The notes below the pieces were generated by a model. The model saw nothing but the letters and a program-made list of their open reading frames with translations. It did not search any database and was not told the origin of the DNA. A DNA stretch of 55,779 nt from a virus (taxonomy: Duplodnaviria > Caudoviricetes), in the IMG/VR virus record IMGVR_UViG_3300000162_000007, positions 1 through 55,779 of that record, one strand, 5' to 3'. Position 1 is the first letter of the stretch; the number at the start of each line of letters is the position of its first letter. The translations under genes and the position numbers were made by a program. Below, one piece after another: positions 8,232 to 12,428 of this stretch.

Positions 8232-8831
8232 CTATTTTTTATTCATCAAGTATCTTTCCTTTCTTGCTGAATTTTTGTTTTTAGATTTGTATGTGTCTAA
8301 TTGAGAGTCACAATTAGGACAAACTAATCTTAAGTTTTCTCTTTTGTTATTTGATGCATCACCATCAATGTGGTCTAAAACAAATACAATCGGTTTTCCA
8401 TTCCACTCATTTTCAATCGAACATATACTACAACAATTGTTTTGTTCTTGTAATATATGTGGTTTAAGAAATTTAATACCACTCTGTACACTACAATATT
8501 CACTTTGATTGTTCAAATAATGTTCTAATTTTTTAGATTTAATGTACTCACCATTACATTTATTTGAACAAAATTTTGCACCAGTATACGCTAGAACAAA
8601 TGTGTTATCACAATTAAGACAAATTGATGATTTAACTTTGCCTTTATTATGTGGAACCCATCCATCTGGAAATTTAGACCTTTTTTGTAAAGAAATACCA
8701 AGTTTACCACATATTTTTTTAATATAAGTGTCCGATACTCCATACATTCTGCCTATCTCTCTATAAGATAGATTTTTATTGAAAATTAAATCTTCAAGTT
8801 CAAATTTTTCGTATTTTCCAAATAATTTCAT
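8232..8831 (-). CDS. HNH endonuclease inserted in the tRNA array
   Basis: N-terminal HTH-like segment, CxxC pairs, LDHIDGDASNNKRENLRLVCPNCDSQ. Confidence 0.9.
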   Translation of the reverse strand: MKLFGKYEKFELEDLIFNKNLSYREIGRMYGVSDTYIKKICGKLGISLQKRSKFPDGWVPHNKGKVKSSICLNCDNTFVLAYTGAKFCSNKCNGEYIKSKKLEHYLNNQSEYCSVQSGIKFLKPHILQEQNNCCSICSIENEWNGKPIVFVLDHIDGDASNNKRENLRLVCPNCDSQLDTYKSKNKNSARKERYLMNKK

Positions 8832-8989: not shown

Positions 8990-9064
8990 TGGCGGTCTAT
9001 AAGGGTTACGCTCCCTTTACTTCTGCGTGACAGGCAGATATGATAACTACTTCACTAATAGACC
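8990..9064 (-). tRNA. tRNA-Asp(GTC), CCA encoded, atypical T-loop
   Basis: GGTCTAT/ATAGACC + GCCA; TCTGC-CTGTCAC-GCAGA; T-loop AGCGTAA. Confidence 0.88.
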
Positions 9065-9070
9065 TTTTTG

Positions 9071-9142
9071 AGCCTCCGCCCGGAATCGAACCGAGTTATC
9101 TAGATTACAAGTCTAGCGCATCGCCTGCAATGCTTAAGAGGC
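9071..9142 (-). tRNA. tRNA-Thr(TGT)
   Basis: CTAGA-CTTGTAA-TCTAG anticodon arm; TTCGATT T-loop. Confidence 0.9.
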
Positions 9143-9147
9143 TTTTG

Positions 9148-9221
9148 TATTCCGGACGGGCCACGATCCCGCAATCTCCACTGTGAAAGAGTGACGACTT
9201 AACCAATTTGTCCACCGGAAC
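9148..9221 (-). tRNA. tRNA-Glu(TTC), atypical T-loop
   Basis: GTTCCGG/CCGGAAT; TCACT-CTTTCAC-AGTGG; T-loop ATCGTGG. Confidence 0.88.
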
Positions 9222-9222
9222 A

Positions 9223-9314
9223 TGTAAGGAAAGTAGAAGATGGGTGCGTGGACGACTACTTTTATGATTGGCGTTACTATCCGATGTTTATGTTTTTTCC
9301 CAATCAACCTTATA
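9223..9314 (-). ncRNA. Unknown three-stem structured RNA
   Basis: TAAGG/CCTTA closing stem; TGATTGG/CCAATCA and AAAGTAG/CTACTTT inner stems; begins just after a promoter. Confidence 0.55.
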
Positions 9315-9317
9315 TGT

Positions 9318-9349
9318 TAAATATACAAAAATTTTCCTTATATACCAAA
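9318..9349 (-). promoter_or_regulatory. Internal sigma70-type promoter splitting the tRNA array into two blocks
   Basis: TTTG-N20-TATATTTA, same geometry as the other promoters in the window. Confidence 0.6.
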
Positions 9350-9406
9350 AATTATCCTCAAAAAAATTTTCGGACTTTTGATAAAATCGAAAAAAAGTAC
9401 ATTTTG

Positions 9407-9481
9407 TACCGGTAATAGGATTCGAACCTATAATTGTATGGCTTCTAAGACCACTGCGTATGCCAATTCCGCCATACCGGT
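9407..9481 (-). tRNA. tRNA-Leu(TAG) lacking the long variable arm
   Basis: ACCGGTA/TACCGGT + A; GTGGT-CTTAGAA-GCCAT; 5-nt variable loop. Confidence 0.88.
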
Positions 9482-9488
9482 ATTTATG

Positions 9489-9573
9489 CGGAAAGTGTGA
9501 GATTCGAACTCACGGACCTTTAACAGTCGGCAGTTTAGTAAACTGCTGGTTTAAACCACTCACCCAACTTTCC
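9489..9573 (-). tRNA. tRNA-Ser(ACT), unusual A34 anticodon
   Basis: GGAAAGT/ACTTTCC + G73; long variable arm; GCAGT-TTACTAA-ACTGC. Confidence 0.9.
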
Positions 9574-9579
9574 TATTTG

Positions 9580-9651
9580 GGTCAAAGGACGGTATCGAAC
9601 CGACTTATCCGGCTCCACAAACCGGCGCATCACCTTAATGCTTCTAAGACC
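9580..9651 (-). tRNA. tRNA-His(GTG)
   Basis: Encoded G-1 opposite C73; CCGGT-TTGTGGA-GCCGG. Confidence 0.9.
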
Positions 9652-9710
9652 ATATGTGGAATCGAACCACTTTCCCAACTCTTACGTTAGGCGATACTCC
9701 TTTATCCTTT
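9652..9710 (-). pseudogene. tRNA remnant lacking an acceptor stem
   Basis: GATA-AAGGAG-TATC, CCTAAC-GTAAGA-GTTGGG and GTGG-TTCGATT-CCAC arms occur in tRNA order, but no 7-bp acceptor pairing is present. Confidence 0.5.
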
Positions 9711-9714
9711 ATCG

Positions 9715-9785
9715 AGGTGTGTATTGGATTCGAACCAATGTTAGAGGTTTTGCAGACCTCCACCTAGCCACTCGGACAACTCACC
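9715..9785 (-). tRNA. tRNA-Cys(GCA)
   Basis: GAGGT-CTGCAAA-ACCTC; U73. Confidence 0.93.
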
Positions 9786-9791
9786 TTATTG

Positions 9792-9864
9792 TAGTTTCAG
9801 TAGGACTCGAACCTACACTCTAACATTCGTAGTGTTATGTGATAATCCATTTCACTATGAAACT
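9792..9864 (-). tRNA. tRNA-Arg(ACG)
   Basis: AGTTTCA/TGAAACT; TAACA-CTACGAA-TGTTA. Confidence 0.93.
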
Positions 9865-9869
9865 ATTTG

Positions 9870-9938
9870 CACGCAGTGAAGGAATCGAACCCTCTCGTAA
9901 AGATTTGGAGTCTTTTTAGCTGCCATAGCCTACCACGC
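9870..9938 (-). tRNA. tRNA-Trp(CCA), compact D arm
   Basis: AAAGA-CTCCAAA-TCTTT; G73; wobble-rich acceptor, 5' end approximate. Confidence 0.8.
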
Positions 9939-9943
9939 ATTTG

Positions 9944-10017
9944 TTGGAATAAAAAGAATCGAACTTTTAACCTTTCGCGTATCAGGCGAATGCTCTAACC
10001 AATTGAGCTATATTCCA
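9944..10017 (-). tRNA. tRNA-Ile(GAT)
   Basis: TGGAATA/TATTCCA; TTCGC-CTGATAC-GCGAA. Confidence 0.93.
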
Positions 10018-10023
10018 ATGTTG

Positions 10024-10100
10024 TAGAGTGAACAGGATTCGAACCTGTGAGTTCTCTTGCTCCCAAAGCAAGCGGGGTAACCGGACTCCCCAACCACTCT
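10024..10100 (-). tRNA. tRNA-Pro(TGG)
   Basis: CTTGC-TTTGGGA-GCAAG; TTCGAAT T-loop. Confidence 0.9.
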
Positions 10101-10106
10101 ATTTTG

Positions 10107-10178
10107 TTATCGGACCTGGATTTGAACCAAAACTAATAGAATCAAAATCTATTGTGCTGCCAATTACACCATCCGACA
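10107..10178 (-). tRNA. tRNA-Gln(TTG)
   Basis: U1:A72; ATAGA-TTTTGAT-TCTAT. Confidence 0.9.
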
Positions 10179-10183
10179 ATTTG

Positions 10184-10256
10184 AGCAGATGAGAGGAATC
10201 GAACCTCCGTCTCCTACTTGGAAGAAAGGAGTAATGAGCCATTATACGACATCTGC
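10184..10256 (-). tRNA. tRNA-Gly(TCC)
   Basis: GCAGATG/CATCTGC + U73; loop CTTCCAA; one U-U mismatch in the anticodon stem. Confidence 0.88.
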
Positions 10257-10267
10257 TTTTATGTTTG

Positions 10268-10339
10268 CGCTTTCGGATGGATTTGAACCAACGACCAATT
10301 GATTAACAGTCAACTGCGCTACCACTGCGCTACGAAAGC
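10268..10339 (-). tRNA. tRNA-Asn(GTT)
   Basis: GCTTTCG/CGAAAGC + G; GTTGA-CTGTTAA-TCAAT. Confidence 0.93.
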
Positions 10340-10342
10340 TTT

Positions 10343-10427
10343 TGGTGAGAGTAGATGGACTCGAACCACCGAACTCGAAAGAGAGCTGATTTACAGTCAG
10401 CCGCAATTGCCACTATGCGATACTCCC
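10343..10427 (-). tRNA. tRNA-Tyr(GTA), CCA encoded
   Basis: GGGAGTA/TACTCTC + ACCA; GCTGA-CTGTAAA-TCAGC; long variable arm. Confidence 0.95.
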
Positions 10428-10465
10428 AAAAACAAAAAACCCCAACTAATTAAAGTCAGGGTTTT
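10428..10465 (-). terminator. Intrinsic terminator (attenuator 3:4 hairpin) immediately before the first tRNA of the array
   Basis: AAAACCCTGAC-TTTAATTA-GTTGGGGTTTT followed by TTGTTTTT. Confidence 0.85.
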
Positions 10466-10496
10466 CTAAAATTCTTAATATAAATCTAGCCTAACT

Positions 10497-10565
10497 TTAC
10501 ATATCTCTGCCATACCAAATCTGATTCGGTGTGCTACAAAGTGTATGTAATGTTAATGCTTTCAT
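10497..10565 (-). CDS. Leader peptide MKALTLHTLCSTPNQIWYGRDM
   Basis: ATG AAA GCA TTA ACA TTA CAT ACA CTT TGT AGC ACA CCG AAT CAG ATT TGG TAT GGC AGA GAT ATG TAA; too short for the ORF track; TATTTATA motif 4 nt upstream. Confidence 0.8.
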   Translation of the reverse strand: MKALTLHTLCSTPNQIWYGRDM

Positions 10566-10665
10566 TTGTTATAAATATAATCGAATTAAAAAAGTAATCA
10601 ATCTTCAAAATACGCCACGTCAAGTCATGCTCCGGTTAATACAAGCCTCGATAAATTACTTTCTG

Positions 10666-10706
10666 CTATCATTATTGGAATCGAACCAACATTAACCATT
10701 ATGATA
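10666..10706 (-). ncRNA. tRNA minihelix-like element (acceptor plus T arm only)
   Basis: TATCAT/ATGATA + G-CA; GTTGG-TTCGATT-CCAAT; about 9 nt replaces the D and anticodon arms. Confidence 0.5.
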
Positions 10707-10715
10707 AAATAAAAT

Positions 10716-11575
10716 AGGGATGAGAATACTCCATATTGTGAACCAGCTTTAGAAAGATTATTAGTTCCTTCCGTTTCCACACCCTTTTGAGATGTACCAA
10801 TTCAATGTGGGTTAATTGAGTCAACCAATCTTAAAGTTATAAACTACTCTCTTTTTACTACGCTTCCTTAAACCTATCGGCCTAACTAGTCCTTGCGGGA
10901 TTAGAAGTTTTTCGAAAGAATCACAGACTTCTTGCGGAAGTATCGTGGCTGAGAACGGCTCTCAACTATGTACACACCTTTCGTTTACAACTGGCAAACA
11001 CTTAAGCTTTAAATTTAATTTATGGTTTGCACCGAAAGCAAATTATAAGTTTAGTTTGTAGAATTATTCAAGTAGTGGTTTGCCACCAGCTCCGTTATCT
11101 TTTGAACAACAGAATACTATACTACTCGATGTGATATCCCTACCACGTTATTTTGAGTCATCTTCGAATATAGGTTTTGGTAAACTCTATATAAGGATCG
11201 TAACAGCACCACCTGTACACAGTCTTATCTTACGTCCTTTCGGATAGCTTGATGTTAAGACCACTCTTATAATGAATACCGCAATAATGTAAAGGGATTA
11301 AGTTTACACTTCTTACTGATATTCTATGGGTTATTCTTATTGGTGTCCCCACCTCAACCAAAGTATCTACAATACCCCAGTTACTCAAACTCTTCGATGA
11401 TAGTGTTACCCCCACCTACAAAGCCCAAATAATATCCCACTTGCCTACTCAAGCTAATCTCTCCTTACGGGGAGAGTAGCCGCAAATGTACCACTTAAGT
11501 ACACTCACTTTATCCTACTTTCGTAGTTTATTTAACCACCATAGGCGGCGGTTATCTATTATGTAACACAAGGTT
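10716..11575 (-). ncRNA. Giant structured ncRNA, GOLLD-like
   Basis: About 860 nt with no credible ORF and higher GC than the flanks. Many capped hairpins (CTAC-GAAA-GTAG, TCC-GAAA-GGA, ACTTC-CGCAA-GAAGT, TCC-CGCAA-GGA, CTCTCC-CCGTAA-GGAGAG) and repeated GAGTAG segments. Lies in a phage tRNA cluster. Family assignment rests on size, context and recalled motifs; ends approximate. Confidence 0.75.
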
Positions 11576-11630
11576 ACTAGATAGAATATTTTTAATAATG
11601 TTAAAGAACTACTTCGTTGTTATATATATG

Positions 11631-11662
11631 TAAATATAAATTAAAAAATCAAATTTACCAAA
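11631..11662 (-). promoter_or_regulatory. sigma70-type promoter upstream of the giant RNA
   Basis: TTTG-N20-TATATTTA. Confidence 0.55.
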
Positions 11663-11735
11663 TATTTTTACAACTTTTTTTCTAAGATTAGATACCGAGT
11701 ATCTTTCATTGCCTATAAGTTCCAATCTTATATAT

Positions 11736-11767
11736 CAAAGATACGATAAGTTTTTCAAACTACCAAA
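11736..11767 (-). promoter_or_regulatory. Consensus Bacteroidota sigma70 promoter
   Basis: TTTG-N20-TATCTTTG. Confidence 0.8.
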
Positions 11768-11867
11768 TATCTTTGAGTATTTTTTTATTAGGGTATCCGG
11801 CTTTCTTCCCAGTCGAACTGGTCACTCAATCGGTTTTATTAGTTGATGGCTTCAACCCTAACATTTG

Positions 11868-11939
11868 TTGCGGAAGGAGGGATCGAACCTCCGACCTACG
11901 GGTTATGAGCCCGCCGAGCTACCTCTGCTCTATTCCGCG
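11868..11939 (-). tRNA. Initiator tRNA-fMet(CAT)
   Basis: C1:A72 mismatch; GGG/CCC in the anticodon stem; CTCATAA loop. Confidence 0.93.
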
Positions 11940-11945
11940 ATATTG

Positions 11946-12323
11946 TGGAGATGACGAGACTCGAACTCGTGTCTTACAAAGAACTAATAATACCAGCATA
12001 TCACACGTTTAGGTTAAAGTTTAATCTTATAAACTTTCCAAAATAATTGAGGTCGTATGGTTAGTACAACTTTCCACCAATATATTGTTTAGGTACAACA
12101 TATAAAACCTTTGTAGGCACTTCTGTTACTAGGCGTATGTGCACCGGCCCTATTGTTGCTAACTAAGCTATCGCCAAATCAGCACCTACGAAGTCCATAA
12201 GGTCTGCGAAGGTCATTGTTGACATTTCGTCGTTTATTGTTTTGTGCAGATTTAAGGAGAACTAGCACTTCTCTCCACGTGTGGTACTACCATTTACATT
12301 GTAATCAATTCCATAGCATCCCC
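11946..12323 (-). ncRNA. ssrA: tmRNA
   Basis: 5' GGGGATG pairs with 3' CATCTCC-A with G3:U70; T arm ACGAG-TTCGAGT-CTCGT; ATAAAC-GAC resume context; tag ORF 12163-12231 DEMSTMTFADLMDFVGADLAIA*. Confidence 0.93.
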
Positions 12324-12349
12324 ATTATTTCAATGAACTCTTTCTTAGT

Positions 12350-12381
12350 CAAAGATACAACAATTATTTCAATCTACCAAA
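12350..12381 (-). promoter_or_regulatory. Consensus Bacteroidota sigma70 promoter for tmRNA
   Basis: TTTG-N20-TATCTTTG. Confidence 0.8.
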
Positions 12382-12397
12382 TATTTTGGGAAGTTTT

Positions 12398-12428
12398 TTA
12401 TAACTTGTTGATTATCAATGAGTTATAT
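12398..12428. repeat. Imperfect palindrome
   Basis: TATAACTTGTTGA-TTA-TCAATGAGTTATA at the boundary between protein genes and the RNA island; no U-tract. Confidence 0.5.

What the first reader, a model, noticed from the sequence alone, without database searches (positions are those of the whole stretch)
9407..10565. Leader peptide composition mirrors the tRNA block it precedes
Seen: the 12 tRNAs between the attenuator and the next promoter (9318-9349) are Tyr, Asn, Gly, Gln, Pro, Ile, Trp, Arg, Cys, His, Ser(ACT) and Leu(TAG). Leader codons 7-20, H-T-L-C-S-T-P-N-Q-I-W-Y-G-R, contain each of these 12 amino acids once plus two Thr. The Ser codon is AGC (the box served by Ser-ACT) and this Leu codon is CTT (the box served by Leu-TAG). 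Phe and Val are missing from both the leader and every tRNA in the window; Glu, missing from the leader, is the first tRNA after the internal promoter. Imperfections: Arg is AGA (its tRNA is in block 2), Gly is GGC while the tRNA anticodon is TCC, and Lys at codon 2 has no tRNA here. Inference: the leader is a checklist co-evolving with the tRNA inventory.
Basis: partly seen in the sequence, partly recalled or inferred. Interest (0 to 1): 0.9.

Follow-up and report, generated by a model that had tools for sequence, protein, structure and literature searches.

The report
Attenuator leader before phage tRNA genes
A tiny conserved reading frame followed by a terminator sits directly in front of a phage's block of tRNA genes and looks like a ribosome-operated switch that turns the tRNA genes on when decoding is slow; its near one-to-one match to the tRNAs in this phage is real but is not kept in relatives.

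Summary
On the minus strand, ORF 10565-10497 (22 codons) is followed by an intrinsic-terminator hairpin whose T-tract abuts tRNA-Tyr, the first of 12 tRNAs. Codons 7-20 hold those 12 amino acids once each plus two Thr. This is the only one of 48,693 stop-free 14-codon windows in six frames that does so (random expectation 2e-7 to 7e-7).

The ORF is a member of a family. I found 35 distinct leaders at 58 loci of uncultured freshwater phages, each just upstream of a tRNA array. The frame stays open (0 stops against 161 and 206 in the other frames), but substitutions fall evenly on codon positions, so translation matters and the peptide does not. Four segments can pair 1:2, 2:3 or 3:4, with covariation, as in trp-type attenuators.

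Leaders of 38-47 codons hold all 20 amino acids in 20 of 27 cases and 19 in the other 7.

Codon-by-tRNA co-evolution is not supported. Within clades, own leader and own tRNA set match no better than swapped ones (P=0.15, 0.22), and there are clear counter-examples. Only a coarse correspondence holds.

Best reading: a ribosome-mediated attenuator that senses general decoding capacity. All evidence is computational.

The parts
10571..10579 (-). TATATTTAT motif 14 bases upstream of the leader ATG. It is promoter-like and overlaps the -10 of the scan's TTGATT-16-TATATT site.
   Evidence: the motif occurs 8 times on the gene strand and 0 times on the other, and 6 of the 8 lie within 40 bases upstream of a start, including the leader. 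One search lists the site 10601-10574, but promoter-like sites are not enriched overall (22 found, 24.1 expected). Function not shown.
10497..10565 (-). Leader ORF of 22 codons plus stop: MKALTLHTLCSTPNQIWYGRDM
   Evidence: Homologous ORFs are found at 58 loci. Frame 1 is open over 1730 codons, while frames 2 and 3 hold 161 and 206 stops. Substitutions by codon position are 78:93:82.
10551..10560 (-). Segment 1 (ORF bases 6-15, codons 2-5), which pairs with segment 2 in the off state
   Evidence: In A2 the helix is 97% paired, with a CG to UA change in 4 sequences. In the window alone the duplex is weak (-4.3 kcal/mol, shuffle P=0.41).
10498..10550 (-). Hairpin within the ORF (bases 16-68), stacked on helix 1:2. 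The Pro CCG and Trp TGG codons pair near its tip.
   Evidence: In one search, helix 3 shows changes on both sides in 5 of 8 pairs and is 93% paired.
10489..10497 (-). Segment 2 (AAGTTAGGC), starting at the last base of the stop codon. It is the antiterminator strand and is complementary to the terminator's 5' arm.
   Evidence: -8.4 kcal/mol, shuffle P=0.053. In the family, 44 of 44 variants tested have a 2:3 duplex of -8 kcal/mol or better. The helix is 97% paired with a GC to AU change.
10433..10468 (-). Intrinsic-terminator hairpin. The core 5' arm is 10461-10454 (segment 3) and the 3' arm is 10447-10440 (segment 4).
   Evidence: (15 pairs). The terminator helix is 100% paired in 18 sequences.
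10428..10439 (-). T-tract (TTTTTTGTTTTT) that ends one base before tRNA-Tyr, leaving no room for a promoter
   Evidence: In the family the distance from T-tract to first tRNA is 7-21 bases in 40 of 44 variants.
9406..10427 (-). Block of 12 tRNA genes (Tyr Asn Gly Gln Pro Ile Trp Arg Cys His Ser Leu), with a decayed tRNA at 9713-9651

Best explanation
The ORF, the hairpins and the terminator most likely form a ribosome-mediated (trp-type) transcription attenuator that gates the tRNA array of an uncultured freshwater phage.

- **No ribosome:** segment 1 (codons 2-5 in the window, 3-5 in the longer leaders) pairs with segment 2, and the terminator (3:4) forms.
- **Ribosome reaches the 3' end of the ORF:** it covers segment 2 or separates it from segment 3, so the terminator again forms and the tRNA genes stay off.
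- **Ribosome stalls earlier** (about codons 2-18 here, 2-30 in the long forms): segment 1 is kept away, segment 2 pairs with segment 3, the terminator cannot form, and RNA polymerase runs into the tRNA genes.

The sensing stretch holds a codon for almost every amino acid instead of a run of one kind. The switch would therefore report general decoding capacity: shortage or destruction of any of many tRNAs. It would feed back on the phage's own tRNA supply.

Shown by computation: the ORF, its conservation as an open frame, the alternative pairings and the position of the terminator. Inferred: translation, stalling, read-through, and what is sensed.
For: - **Position.** The T-tract abuts the first tRNA, so block 1 can only be transcribed through the terminator.
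- **Family.** There are 45 unique nucleotide variants at 58 loci. 44 of 45 have a terminator by a strict motif, and the 45th has one with a GAGG stem. The stop codon lies 25-36 bases before segment 3 in all but one.
- **Open frame without peptide conservation.** Frame 1 has 0 stops in 1730 codons, against 161 and 206 in the other frames. Substitutions are 78:93:82 at codon positions 1, 2 and 3 over 13 pairs. Gaps in alignment columns 40-48 are 3, 6 or 9 bases long.
- **Structure.** The off-state structure on 18 sequences has 84.5% of cells paired, against 30-46% when partners are slid. 48 cells changed on both sides, against 19.9 +/- 3.4 in shuffles (0 of 500).
- **Antiterminator.** Helix 2:3 is 97% paired. 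One position covaries in segments 1, 2 and 3 together in L033, L050 and L053, with a G-U wobble opposite it in segment 4. The 2:3 duplex beats shuffles at P<=0.05 in 10 of 12 variants; the window gives 0.053 and L037 gives 0.35.
- **Fold of the window's region.** z = -3.8, with 0 of 200 shuffles as stable.
- **Diversity.** 20 of 27 long leaders hold all 20 amino acids. The null for 20 distinct is 0.3-1.4%. 13 of the 27 have 19 distinct amino acids in the first 26-30 codons, where the null is 5e-4 to 4e-3. C, D, E and R sit in 8-14 different alignment columns yet are present in 24-26 of 27 leaders.
- **Controls.** Unrelated ORFs that match the same search pattern have 11-19 distinct amino acids, and none has 20.
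- **No SD needed.** Only 5 of 40 genes of this phage have an SD-like core, so its absence before the leader is normal.
Against: - There is no experimental or transcript evidence. The RNA-run contigs did not cover the leader.
- The promoter is not established. The scan finds no more promoter-like sites than in shuffles.
- In the window itself, helix 1:2 is weak as an isolated duplex (P=0.41) and 2:3 is borderline (P=0.053). L037 has a weakened 2:3.
- Single sensor codons should give little sensitivity compared with the codon runs of classical attenuators (established knowledge of the trp and his leaders).
- The host is unknown, possibly a cyanobacterium, and close coupling of transcription and translation there is not established.
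- In several long leaders the only D, E or R codon lies at or beyond the predicted sensing window.
- Diversity of the short forms is modest: 13-14 distinct in 18 codons, P=0.08-0.26.
- The sequences are related, so the counts overstate independent support.
Confidence: 0.6

Rival explanations
1. Strict checklist. Each leader codon is there because the matching tRNA gene lies in the block behind it, and codons are gained and lost together with tRNA genes.
For: - The window's 14-codon stretch covers all 12 block amino acids, the only one of 48,693 windows to do so.
- TAT with tRNA-Tyr in the window, against GGT without tRNA-Tyr in L003, L007, L018 and their kin. These are 2 of only 4 variable columns in 217, and no hidden tRNA was found in L003.
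- Short leaders lack F and V where Phe and Val tRNAs are absent.
- Across 18 phages, own pairs show 39 mismatches against 64 +/- 6 for swapped pairs.
- The share of leader codons read by own tRNAs is above the gene baseline in 21 of 21 phages.
Against: - The across-phage signal is essentially one split between two clades. Within clades P=0.15 and 0.22.
- Counter-examples: L048 (Tyr, His, Asp), L014 (A, E, R, K, V), L051 (Ile), L002 (F, K, I), L117 (Tyr), L039 (Ile), L026 (Arg), L102 (Gln).
- Lys is in every leader, and Glu is in no short leader, whatever the tRNA content.
- The Arg and Gly codons of the window are not read by the block's own anticodons.
Confidence: 0.12
2. A structured RNA spacer without sensing. 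The hairpins and terminator end an upstream transcription unit (GOLLD or leader) or serve RNA processing, the tRNAs are made by constant leak-through, and the open frame is kept for an unrelated reason.
For: - The stems explain the invariant H, T, P and W codons.
- No transcript evidence exists for regulation.
- GOLLD lies directly upstream.
Against: - A pure RNA element would not keep one frame free of stops over 1730 codons while the other frames carry about 10% stops.
- It would not keep the stop at a fixed distance from the terminator.
- It would not keep a segment 2 able to pair with both segment 1 and segment 3, with joint covariation.
Confidence: 0.15
3. A functional micropeptide or a sequence-specific arrest peptide. 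In this reading the nascent chain (conserved L-H-T, P, W-x-G) acts on the ribosome or elsewhere.
For: - M1, H7, T8, P13, W and G are invariant in leaders found through a neighbouring protein, independent of the search pattern.
- Arrest peptides such as TnaC depend on a few conserved residues (recalled, not tested).
Against: - Substitutions are equal at the three codon positions.
- The C-terminal halves differ in length and sequence.
- The invariant codons are base-paired in conserved stems.
Confidence: 0.05

Closest known systems
Leader-peptide attenuators of amino-acid operons in enterobacteria (trp, his, leu, thr, ilv, pheA)
   Same: A short ORF before the regulated genes, an intrinsic terminator between them, and mutually exclusive 1:2, 2:3 and 3:4 pairings with the ORF overlapping segment 1. 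Peptide sequence is unimportant.
   Different: There is no run of codons for one amino acid; almost every amino acid occurs once or a few times. The regulated genes are tRNAs, not enzymes. It is found in phages. No Rfam leader family matches.
pheST attenuator (pheM leader) of E. coli (recalled)
   Same: Leader-peptide attenuation applied to a gene of the translation apparatus.
   Different: It senses one amino acid through Phe codons and controls a synthetase, not tRNA genes.
T-box riboswitches
   Same: A terminator/antiterminator choice that reports tRNA status.
   Different: T-boxes bind an uncharged tRNA directly and have no ORF. No T-box match was found here.
GOLLD RNA next to tRNA islands in phages
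   Same: The window has tRNA-Met, then GOLLD (284 bits), then the tRNA array. The cryo-EM preprint 10.1101/2024.12.08.627333 (passages read) describes GOLLD as often lying near tRNA islands, and one studied example as lying downstream of a Met-tRNA.
   Different: The leader, hairpins and terminator lie outside the GOLLD model and are not mentioned in the passages I read.

Membership tests
Ribosome-mediated (leader-peptide) transcription attenuators | Short ORF immediately upstream of the regulated genes, kept open in relatives | tested here: met
   0 stops in frame 1 over 1730 codons, against 161 and 206 in the other frames
Ribosome-mediated (leader-peptide) transcription attenuators | Intrinsic terminator between the ORF and the regulated genes | tested here: met
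   44 of 45 variants by strict motif. The T-tract abuts the first tRNA.
Ribosome-mediated (leader-peptide) transcription attenuators | Mutually exclusive pairings 1:2, 2:3, 3:4, supported by covariation | tested here: met
   Covariation is limited (one three-way position) and weak in the window alone.
Ribosome-mediated (leader-peptide) transcription attenuators | Cluster of codons for the amino acid that is sensed | tested here: not met
   no runs. The window has 17 distinct amino acids in 22 codons, and the long leaders have 19-20 in 38-47 codons.
Ribosome-mediated (leader-peptide) transcription attenuators | Read-through depends on translation and on the supply of charged tRNA | not testable with these tools
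   Needs in vitro or in vivo assays. The RNA runs gave no cover of the leader.
Rfam leader and T-box families | Match to a curated covariance model | tested here: not met
   no match at E<=1 between 10430 and 10716
GOLLD RNA (RF02032) | Score above the gathering threshold | tested here: met
   10717-11129 (-), 284.4 bits against a threshold of 150. This is the neighbour of the finding, not the finding itself.

The most novel reading that the evidence does not exclude
Phages carry a 'pangram' leader: a short ORF that spells nearly all 20 amino acids and works as an all-tRNA sensor. If any tRNA species is scarce in the host or is cut by host anticodon nucleases, the ribosome stalls, the terminator is bypassed and the phage's own tRNA array is switched on. 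Once the phage tRNAs restore decoding, the switch closes again.
Probability: 0.35. Interest if true: 0.9.

Novelty: new variant of a known kind. Interest (0 to 1): 0.75.

Why it matters
How phage tRNA arrays are regulated is largely unknown, and they are now discussed as a counter to host tRNA-cleaving defences and to codon mismatch. A translation-operated switch in front of such arrays would be the first case, to my knowledge, of leader-peptide attenuation controlling tRNA genes. Five full-text searches found no report of one. It would also show a new sensor logic: one codon of nearly every kind instead of a run of one kind. The element is small and is directly testable in a cell-free system. 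It also adds a defined regulatory neighbour to GOLLD RNA, whose function is unknown.

Tried and rejected
- **RNA evidence.** Four freshwater metatranscriptome runs, held as contigs, were laid on 9000-12400. Contigs cover the GOLLD part (about 10733-11621) and little else, with no cover at 10368-10595. Nothing can be said about leader transcripts, their ends or read-through.
- **Cultured relatives.** No cultured phage in the phage collection holds the leader region; only tRNA or tmRNA pieces match. One search used the wrong strand and coordinates of L027 by my slip and gave only tRNA hits. The closest cultured phage by DNA polymerase (Microcystis phage Mel-JY01, 50% identity) has a single tRNA and no array.
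- **Hidden tRNA-Tyr in L003.** Infernal found no tRNA in the 79-base spacer at E<=1.
- **Tail-completion test.** Tails were redrawn from the pooled tail composition of the family. Single P values were 0.035-0.72, so this was not significant. The null is conservative, because the pooled tails are already enriched in what the heads lack.
- **Within-clade permutation** of leaders against tRNA sets was not significant.
- **Functional small protein.** Rejected on the substitution pattern.
- **Papers.** Supplementary files were not opened. Supplementary alignments of the GOLLD papers might show flanks that include this element.
Full report
**Setting**

The window is a 55.8-kb fragment of an uncultured virus record, estimated at about 30% of a genome. 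All long ORFs are on the minus strand, including a family-B DNA polymerase, ribonucleotide reductase and tail fibres. The best cultured match of the polymerase is Microcystis phage Mel-JY01 at 50% identity, followed by Synechococcus phages.

On the minus strand the order of features is as follows:

1. An ATPase-like gene.
2. tmRNA (12323-11945).
3. tRNA-Met.
4. GOLLD RNA (Rfam hit 11129-10717, 284 bits against a threshold of 150).
5. The 22-codon ORF 10565-10497.
6. A terminator hairpin (10468-10433) with T-tract.
7. Twelve tRNAs (10427-9406).
8. A 184-base gap.
9. Glu, Thr, Asp and Arg(tct).
10. An HNH endonuclease ORF.
11. Ala, Met and Ser(tga).

**The observation**

The ORF reads MKALTLHTLCSTPNQIWYGRDM. 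Codons 7-20 hold Y, N, G, Q, P, I, W, R, C, H, S and L once each plus two T. The codon details and the stated imperfections are also correct.

- The whole ORF has 17 distinct amino acids. The window's tRNAs also serve 17. The ORF lacks E, F and V, and the tRNAs lack F, K and V.
P(all 12 in 14 codons) is 2e-7 with protein composition and 7e-7 with a codon null. In the window itself, 1 of 48,693 stop-free 14-codon windows in six frames covers all 12, and it is this one. Five windows cover 11, and three of those overlap the leader.
- The signal has two parts. High diversity has P(17 or more of 22) = 3-5e-3. Given that diversity, the match to the tRNA set has P = 0.015-0.047.
- At codon level the match is unremarkable: 17 of 22 leader codons are read by the phage's anticodons, against 60.6% in its genes (P=0.08).

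**The ORF is a member of a family**

I searched three ways.

- A search with the neighbouring ATPase-like protein gave 25 related loci. Sixteen of them hold a homologous ORF at the same place.
- A degenerate pattern taken from the first 13 codons found 34 stretches in viral contigs. Of these, 27 belong to the family and 7 are an unrelated ORF with no tRNAs nearby.
- The same pattern found more in metagenome contigs. Of the 80 listed stretches, 32 are followed by a tRNA within 500 bases, 4 more are family members cut by a contig end, and 44 are unrelated.
- It found 33 stretches in bacterial genome contigs. One is a family member, on a 1.6-kb contig of a MAG labelled uncultured Cyanobium sp.. 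That is a weak hint to the host.

In all there are 35 distinct leader peptides and 45 unique nucleotide variants at 58 loci. Each lies just upstream of a tRNA array, usually one that begins with tRNA-Asn.

**Translated, but not a protein**

- Frame 1 has no internal stop in 1730 codons, while frames 2 and 3 have 161 and 206.
- Gaps in alignment columns 40-48 are 3, 6 or 9 bases long.
- Substitutions fall evenly on codon positions (78:93:82 over 13 pairs), and the C-terminal halves differ in length and sequence.
- An open frame is therefore selected, and a particular peptide is not. This is the signature of a regulatory leader. It argues against both a micropeptide and a purely non-coding RNA.
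- Only 5 of 40 genes of this phage have an SD-like core, so the absence of one before the leader is normal.
- A strand-specific motif, TATATTTAT, occurs 8 times on the gene strand and never on the other. Six of the 8 lie within 40 bases upstream of starts, and one lies 14 bases before the leader ATG. Whether it is a promoter is open.

**Attenuator anatomy**

Folding shows the same plan in all variants. The segments are:

| Segment | Position | Pairs with |
|---|---|---|
| 1 | ORF bases 6-16 | Segment 2 |
| 2 | At the stop codon in 22-codon leaders; 19-39 bases before it in longer ones | Segment 1 or segment 3 |
| 3 | 5' arm of the terminator | Segment 2 or segment 4 |
| 4 | 3' arm of the terminator, nearly the same sequence as segment 2 | Segment 3 |

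- Helix 1:2 encloses conserved hairpins inside the ORF.
- On an 18-sequence alignment, the off-state structure has 84.5% of cells paired, against 30-46% for slid partners. It has 48 cells changed on both sides, against 19.9 +/- 3.4 in shuffles (0 of 500).
- Helix 2:3 is 97% paired.
- In L033, L050 and L053 one position changes together in segments 1, 2 and 3 (U, A, U instead of C, G, C), with a G-U wobble in segment 4. This supports both alternative pairings.
- The 2:3 duplex beats dinucleotide shuffles at P<=0.05 in 10 of 12 variants. The window gives 0.053 and L037 gives 0.35. The 1:2 duplex does so in 5 of 12.
- All 44 variants tested have a 2:3 duplex of -8 kcal/mol or better. The stop codon lies 25-36 bases before segment 3 in all but one.
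- The T-tract ends 7-21 bases before the first tRNA in 40 of 44 variants, and one base before it in the window. The block therefore has no room for a promoter of its own and must be transcribed through the terminator.

**How it most likely works (inferred)**

- With no ribosome, 1:2 and then 3:4 form, and transcription stops.
- A ribosome that reaches the end of the ORF covers segment 2 or keeps it from segment 3, so 3:4 forms and transcription stops.
- A ribosome stalled earlier keeps segment 1 away and leaves segment 2 free. Then 2:3 forms, and polymerase reads into the tRNA genes.
- With a footprint of about 12 bases beyond the A site, the productive stall positions are about codons 2-18 in the window and 2-30 in the long forms.

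**What it senses**

- Leaders of 38-47 codons hold all 20 amino acids in 20 of 27 distinct sequences, and 19 in the other 7.
- A random open frame of that length and base composition reaches 20 in 0.3-1.4% of cases. Windows of the phage's own proteins do so in 0.3-0.9%.
- Thirteen of the 27 have 19 distinct amino acids within the first 26-30 codons. The null for that is 5e-4 to 4e-3.
- C, D, E and R occupy 8-14 different alignment columns yet are present in 24-26 of 27 leaders. For example, Cys sits at codon 10 or in a VCDF insert in 24 of the 26 leaders that hold it, and never at both.
- Unrelated ORFs that share the search pattern have 11-19 distinct amino acids and never 20.
- The sequences are related, and H, P, W and C codons lie in stems. 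These figures therefore overstate independent evidence, but together they suggest selection to keep nearly every amino acid represented.
- The short forms are less striking: 14-17 distinct in 22 codons. The window is the extreme case among them.

**Does the leader track the tRNA inventory?**

Coarsely, yes.

- Phages with 22-codon leaders (no F, V or E, and mostly no Y) have arrays without Phe, Lys and Val tRNAs, and mostly without Tyr. Phages with leaders of 38-47 codons carry tRNAs for 17 to 20 amino acids, mostly 19 or 20.
- In four genomes estimated complete, the tRNAs are confined to this one cluster, with one exception in G004.
- Over 18 phages, own pairs have 39 mismatches against 64 +/- 6 for swapped pairs.
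- The share of leader codons read by own tRNAs exceeds the gene baseline in 21 of 21 phages.
- The window differs from L003, L007 and L018 at 4 of 217 columns. Two of them turn GGT into TAT, and only the window has tRNA-Tyr.

Finely, no.

- Within the short clade and within the long clade, own pairs are no better than swapped ones (P=0.15 and 0.22).
- L048 has tRNA-Tyr first but no Tyr codon, and no tRNA-His but a His codon.
- L014 has the window's tRNA amino-acid set but a leader that differs in five amino acids.
- L051, L039, L117, L043 and L076 lost a tRNA without a leader change. L026, L049, L102 and L024 lack a leader codon for a tRNA that is present. L002 combines a 20-amino-acid leader with an array that lacks Phe, Lys and Ile(gat).
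- Of about 14 gains or losses, one tracks clearly (Tyr in the window), and perhaps a second (Ala in L048).

**Comparison with what is known**

The plan is that of trp-type leader-peptide attenuators. It differs in one defining feature, since there is no run of cognate codons, and in its target, which is tRNA genes in a phage. No Rfam leader or T-box model matches. GOLLD RNAs are known to lie near tRNA islands, and one studied example lies downstream of a Met-tRNA (passages of 10.1101/2024.12.08.627333). Five full-text searches found no report of a leader-peptide attenuator before tRNA genes. I did not see the supplements.

**Verdict**

The element is best read as a new variant of ribosome-mediated attenuation that gates a phage tRNA array and samples nearly all amino acids. 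The exact mirror seen in this window is the best case within a family where fine matching is not maintained. All of this rests on sequence analysis. Translation, termination and read-through remain to be shown.

Noticed in passing
window 10717-11867 (-): GOLLD RNA follows tRNA-Met and a tmRNA with an unusually long tag (DEMSTMTFADLMDFVGADLAIA). Contigs from four freshwater metatranscriptome runs cover about 10733-11621, so GOLLD of this phage group is present in RNA libraries.
   Followed up: partly
window 10676-10700 (-): A T-arm-like motif (TTGGTTCGATTCCAA) lies just 3' of the Rfam GOLLD match and is conserved in L002, L003, L007 and L018. It could be a tRNA-like end or a processing signal.
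   Followed up: no
window 9651-9713 (-): The 63-base gap between tRNA-Cys and tRNA-His is a decayed tRNA. It aligns to the tRNA-Met(cat) that L002 has at this place, with an 11-base deletion and a lost 3' end.
   Followed up: yes
L002 7182-7248; L003 13287-13365: A conserved 67-79-base spacer element (begins AAACGGTTACCAATCCGGAACAC, ends GGTGATAACAAAATTGGAAAT) sits at different places between tRNAs in different phages and is absent from the window. It may be a small mobile or processing element.
   Followed up: no
window 9488-9573 (-): tRNA-Ser has anticodon ACT, which is unusual. Several relatives have GCT at the same array position.
   Followed up: no
L020 18278-18350; L179 (G003), reverse strand, 2455-2526: tRNA-like genes that ARAGORN reads with a two-base 'anticodon' (tc or aa) lie shortly upstream of the leader in several relatives.
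   Followed up: no
window 8232-8831 (-): An HNH endonuclease ORF is inserted inside the tRNA cluster. Relatives have gaps of other sizes (about 90-660 bases) between the same tRNAs.
   Followed up: no
window, whole: TATATTTAT occurs 8 times on the gene strand and never on the other strand. Six of the 8 lie within 40 bases upstream of gene starts, so it is a candidate phage promoter or start-region motif.
   Followed up: partly
L013 12050-12278: A more distant relative lacks the family's leader pattern. It has a different 26-codon ORF (16 distinct amino acids) with its stop inside a segment complementary to a terminator that directly precedes tRNA-Asn. It may be an independent version of the same design.
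   Followed up: no
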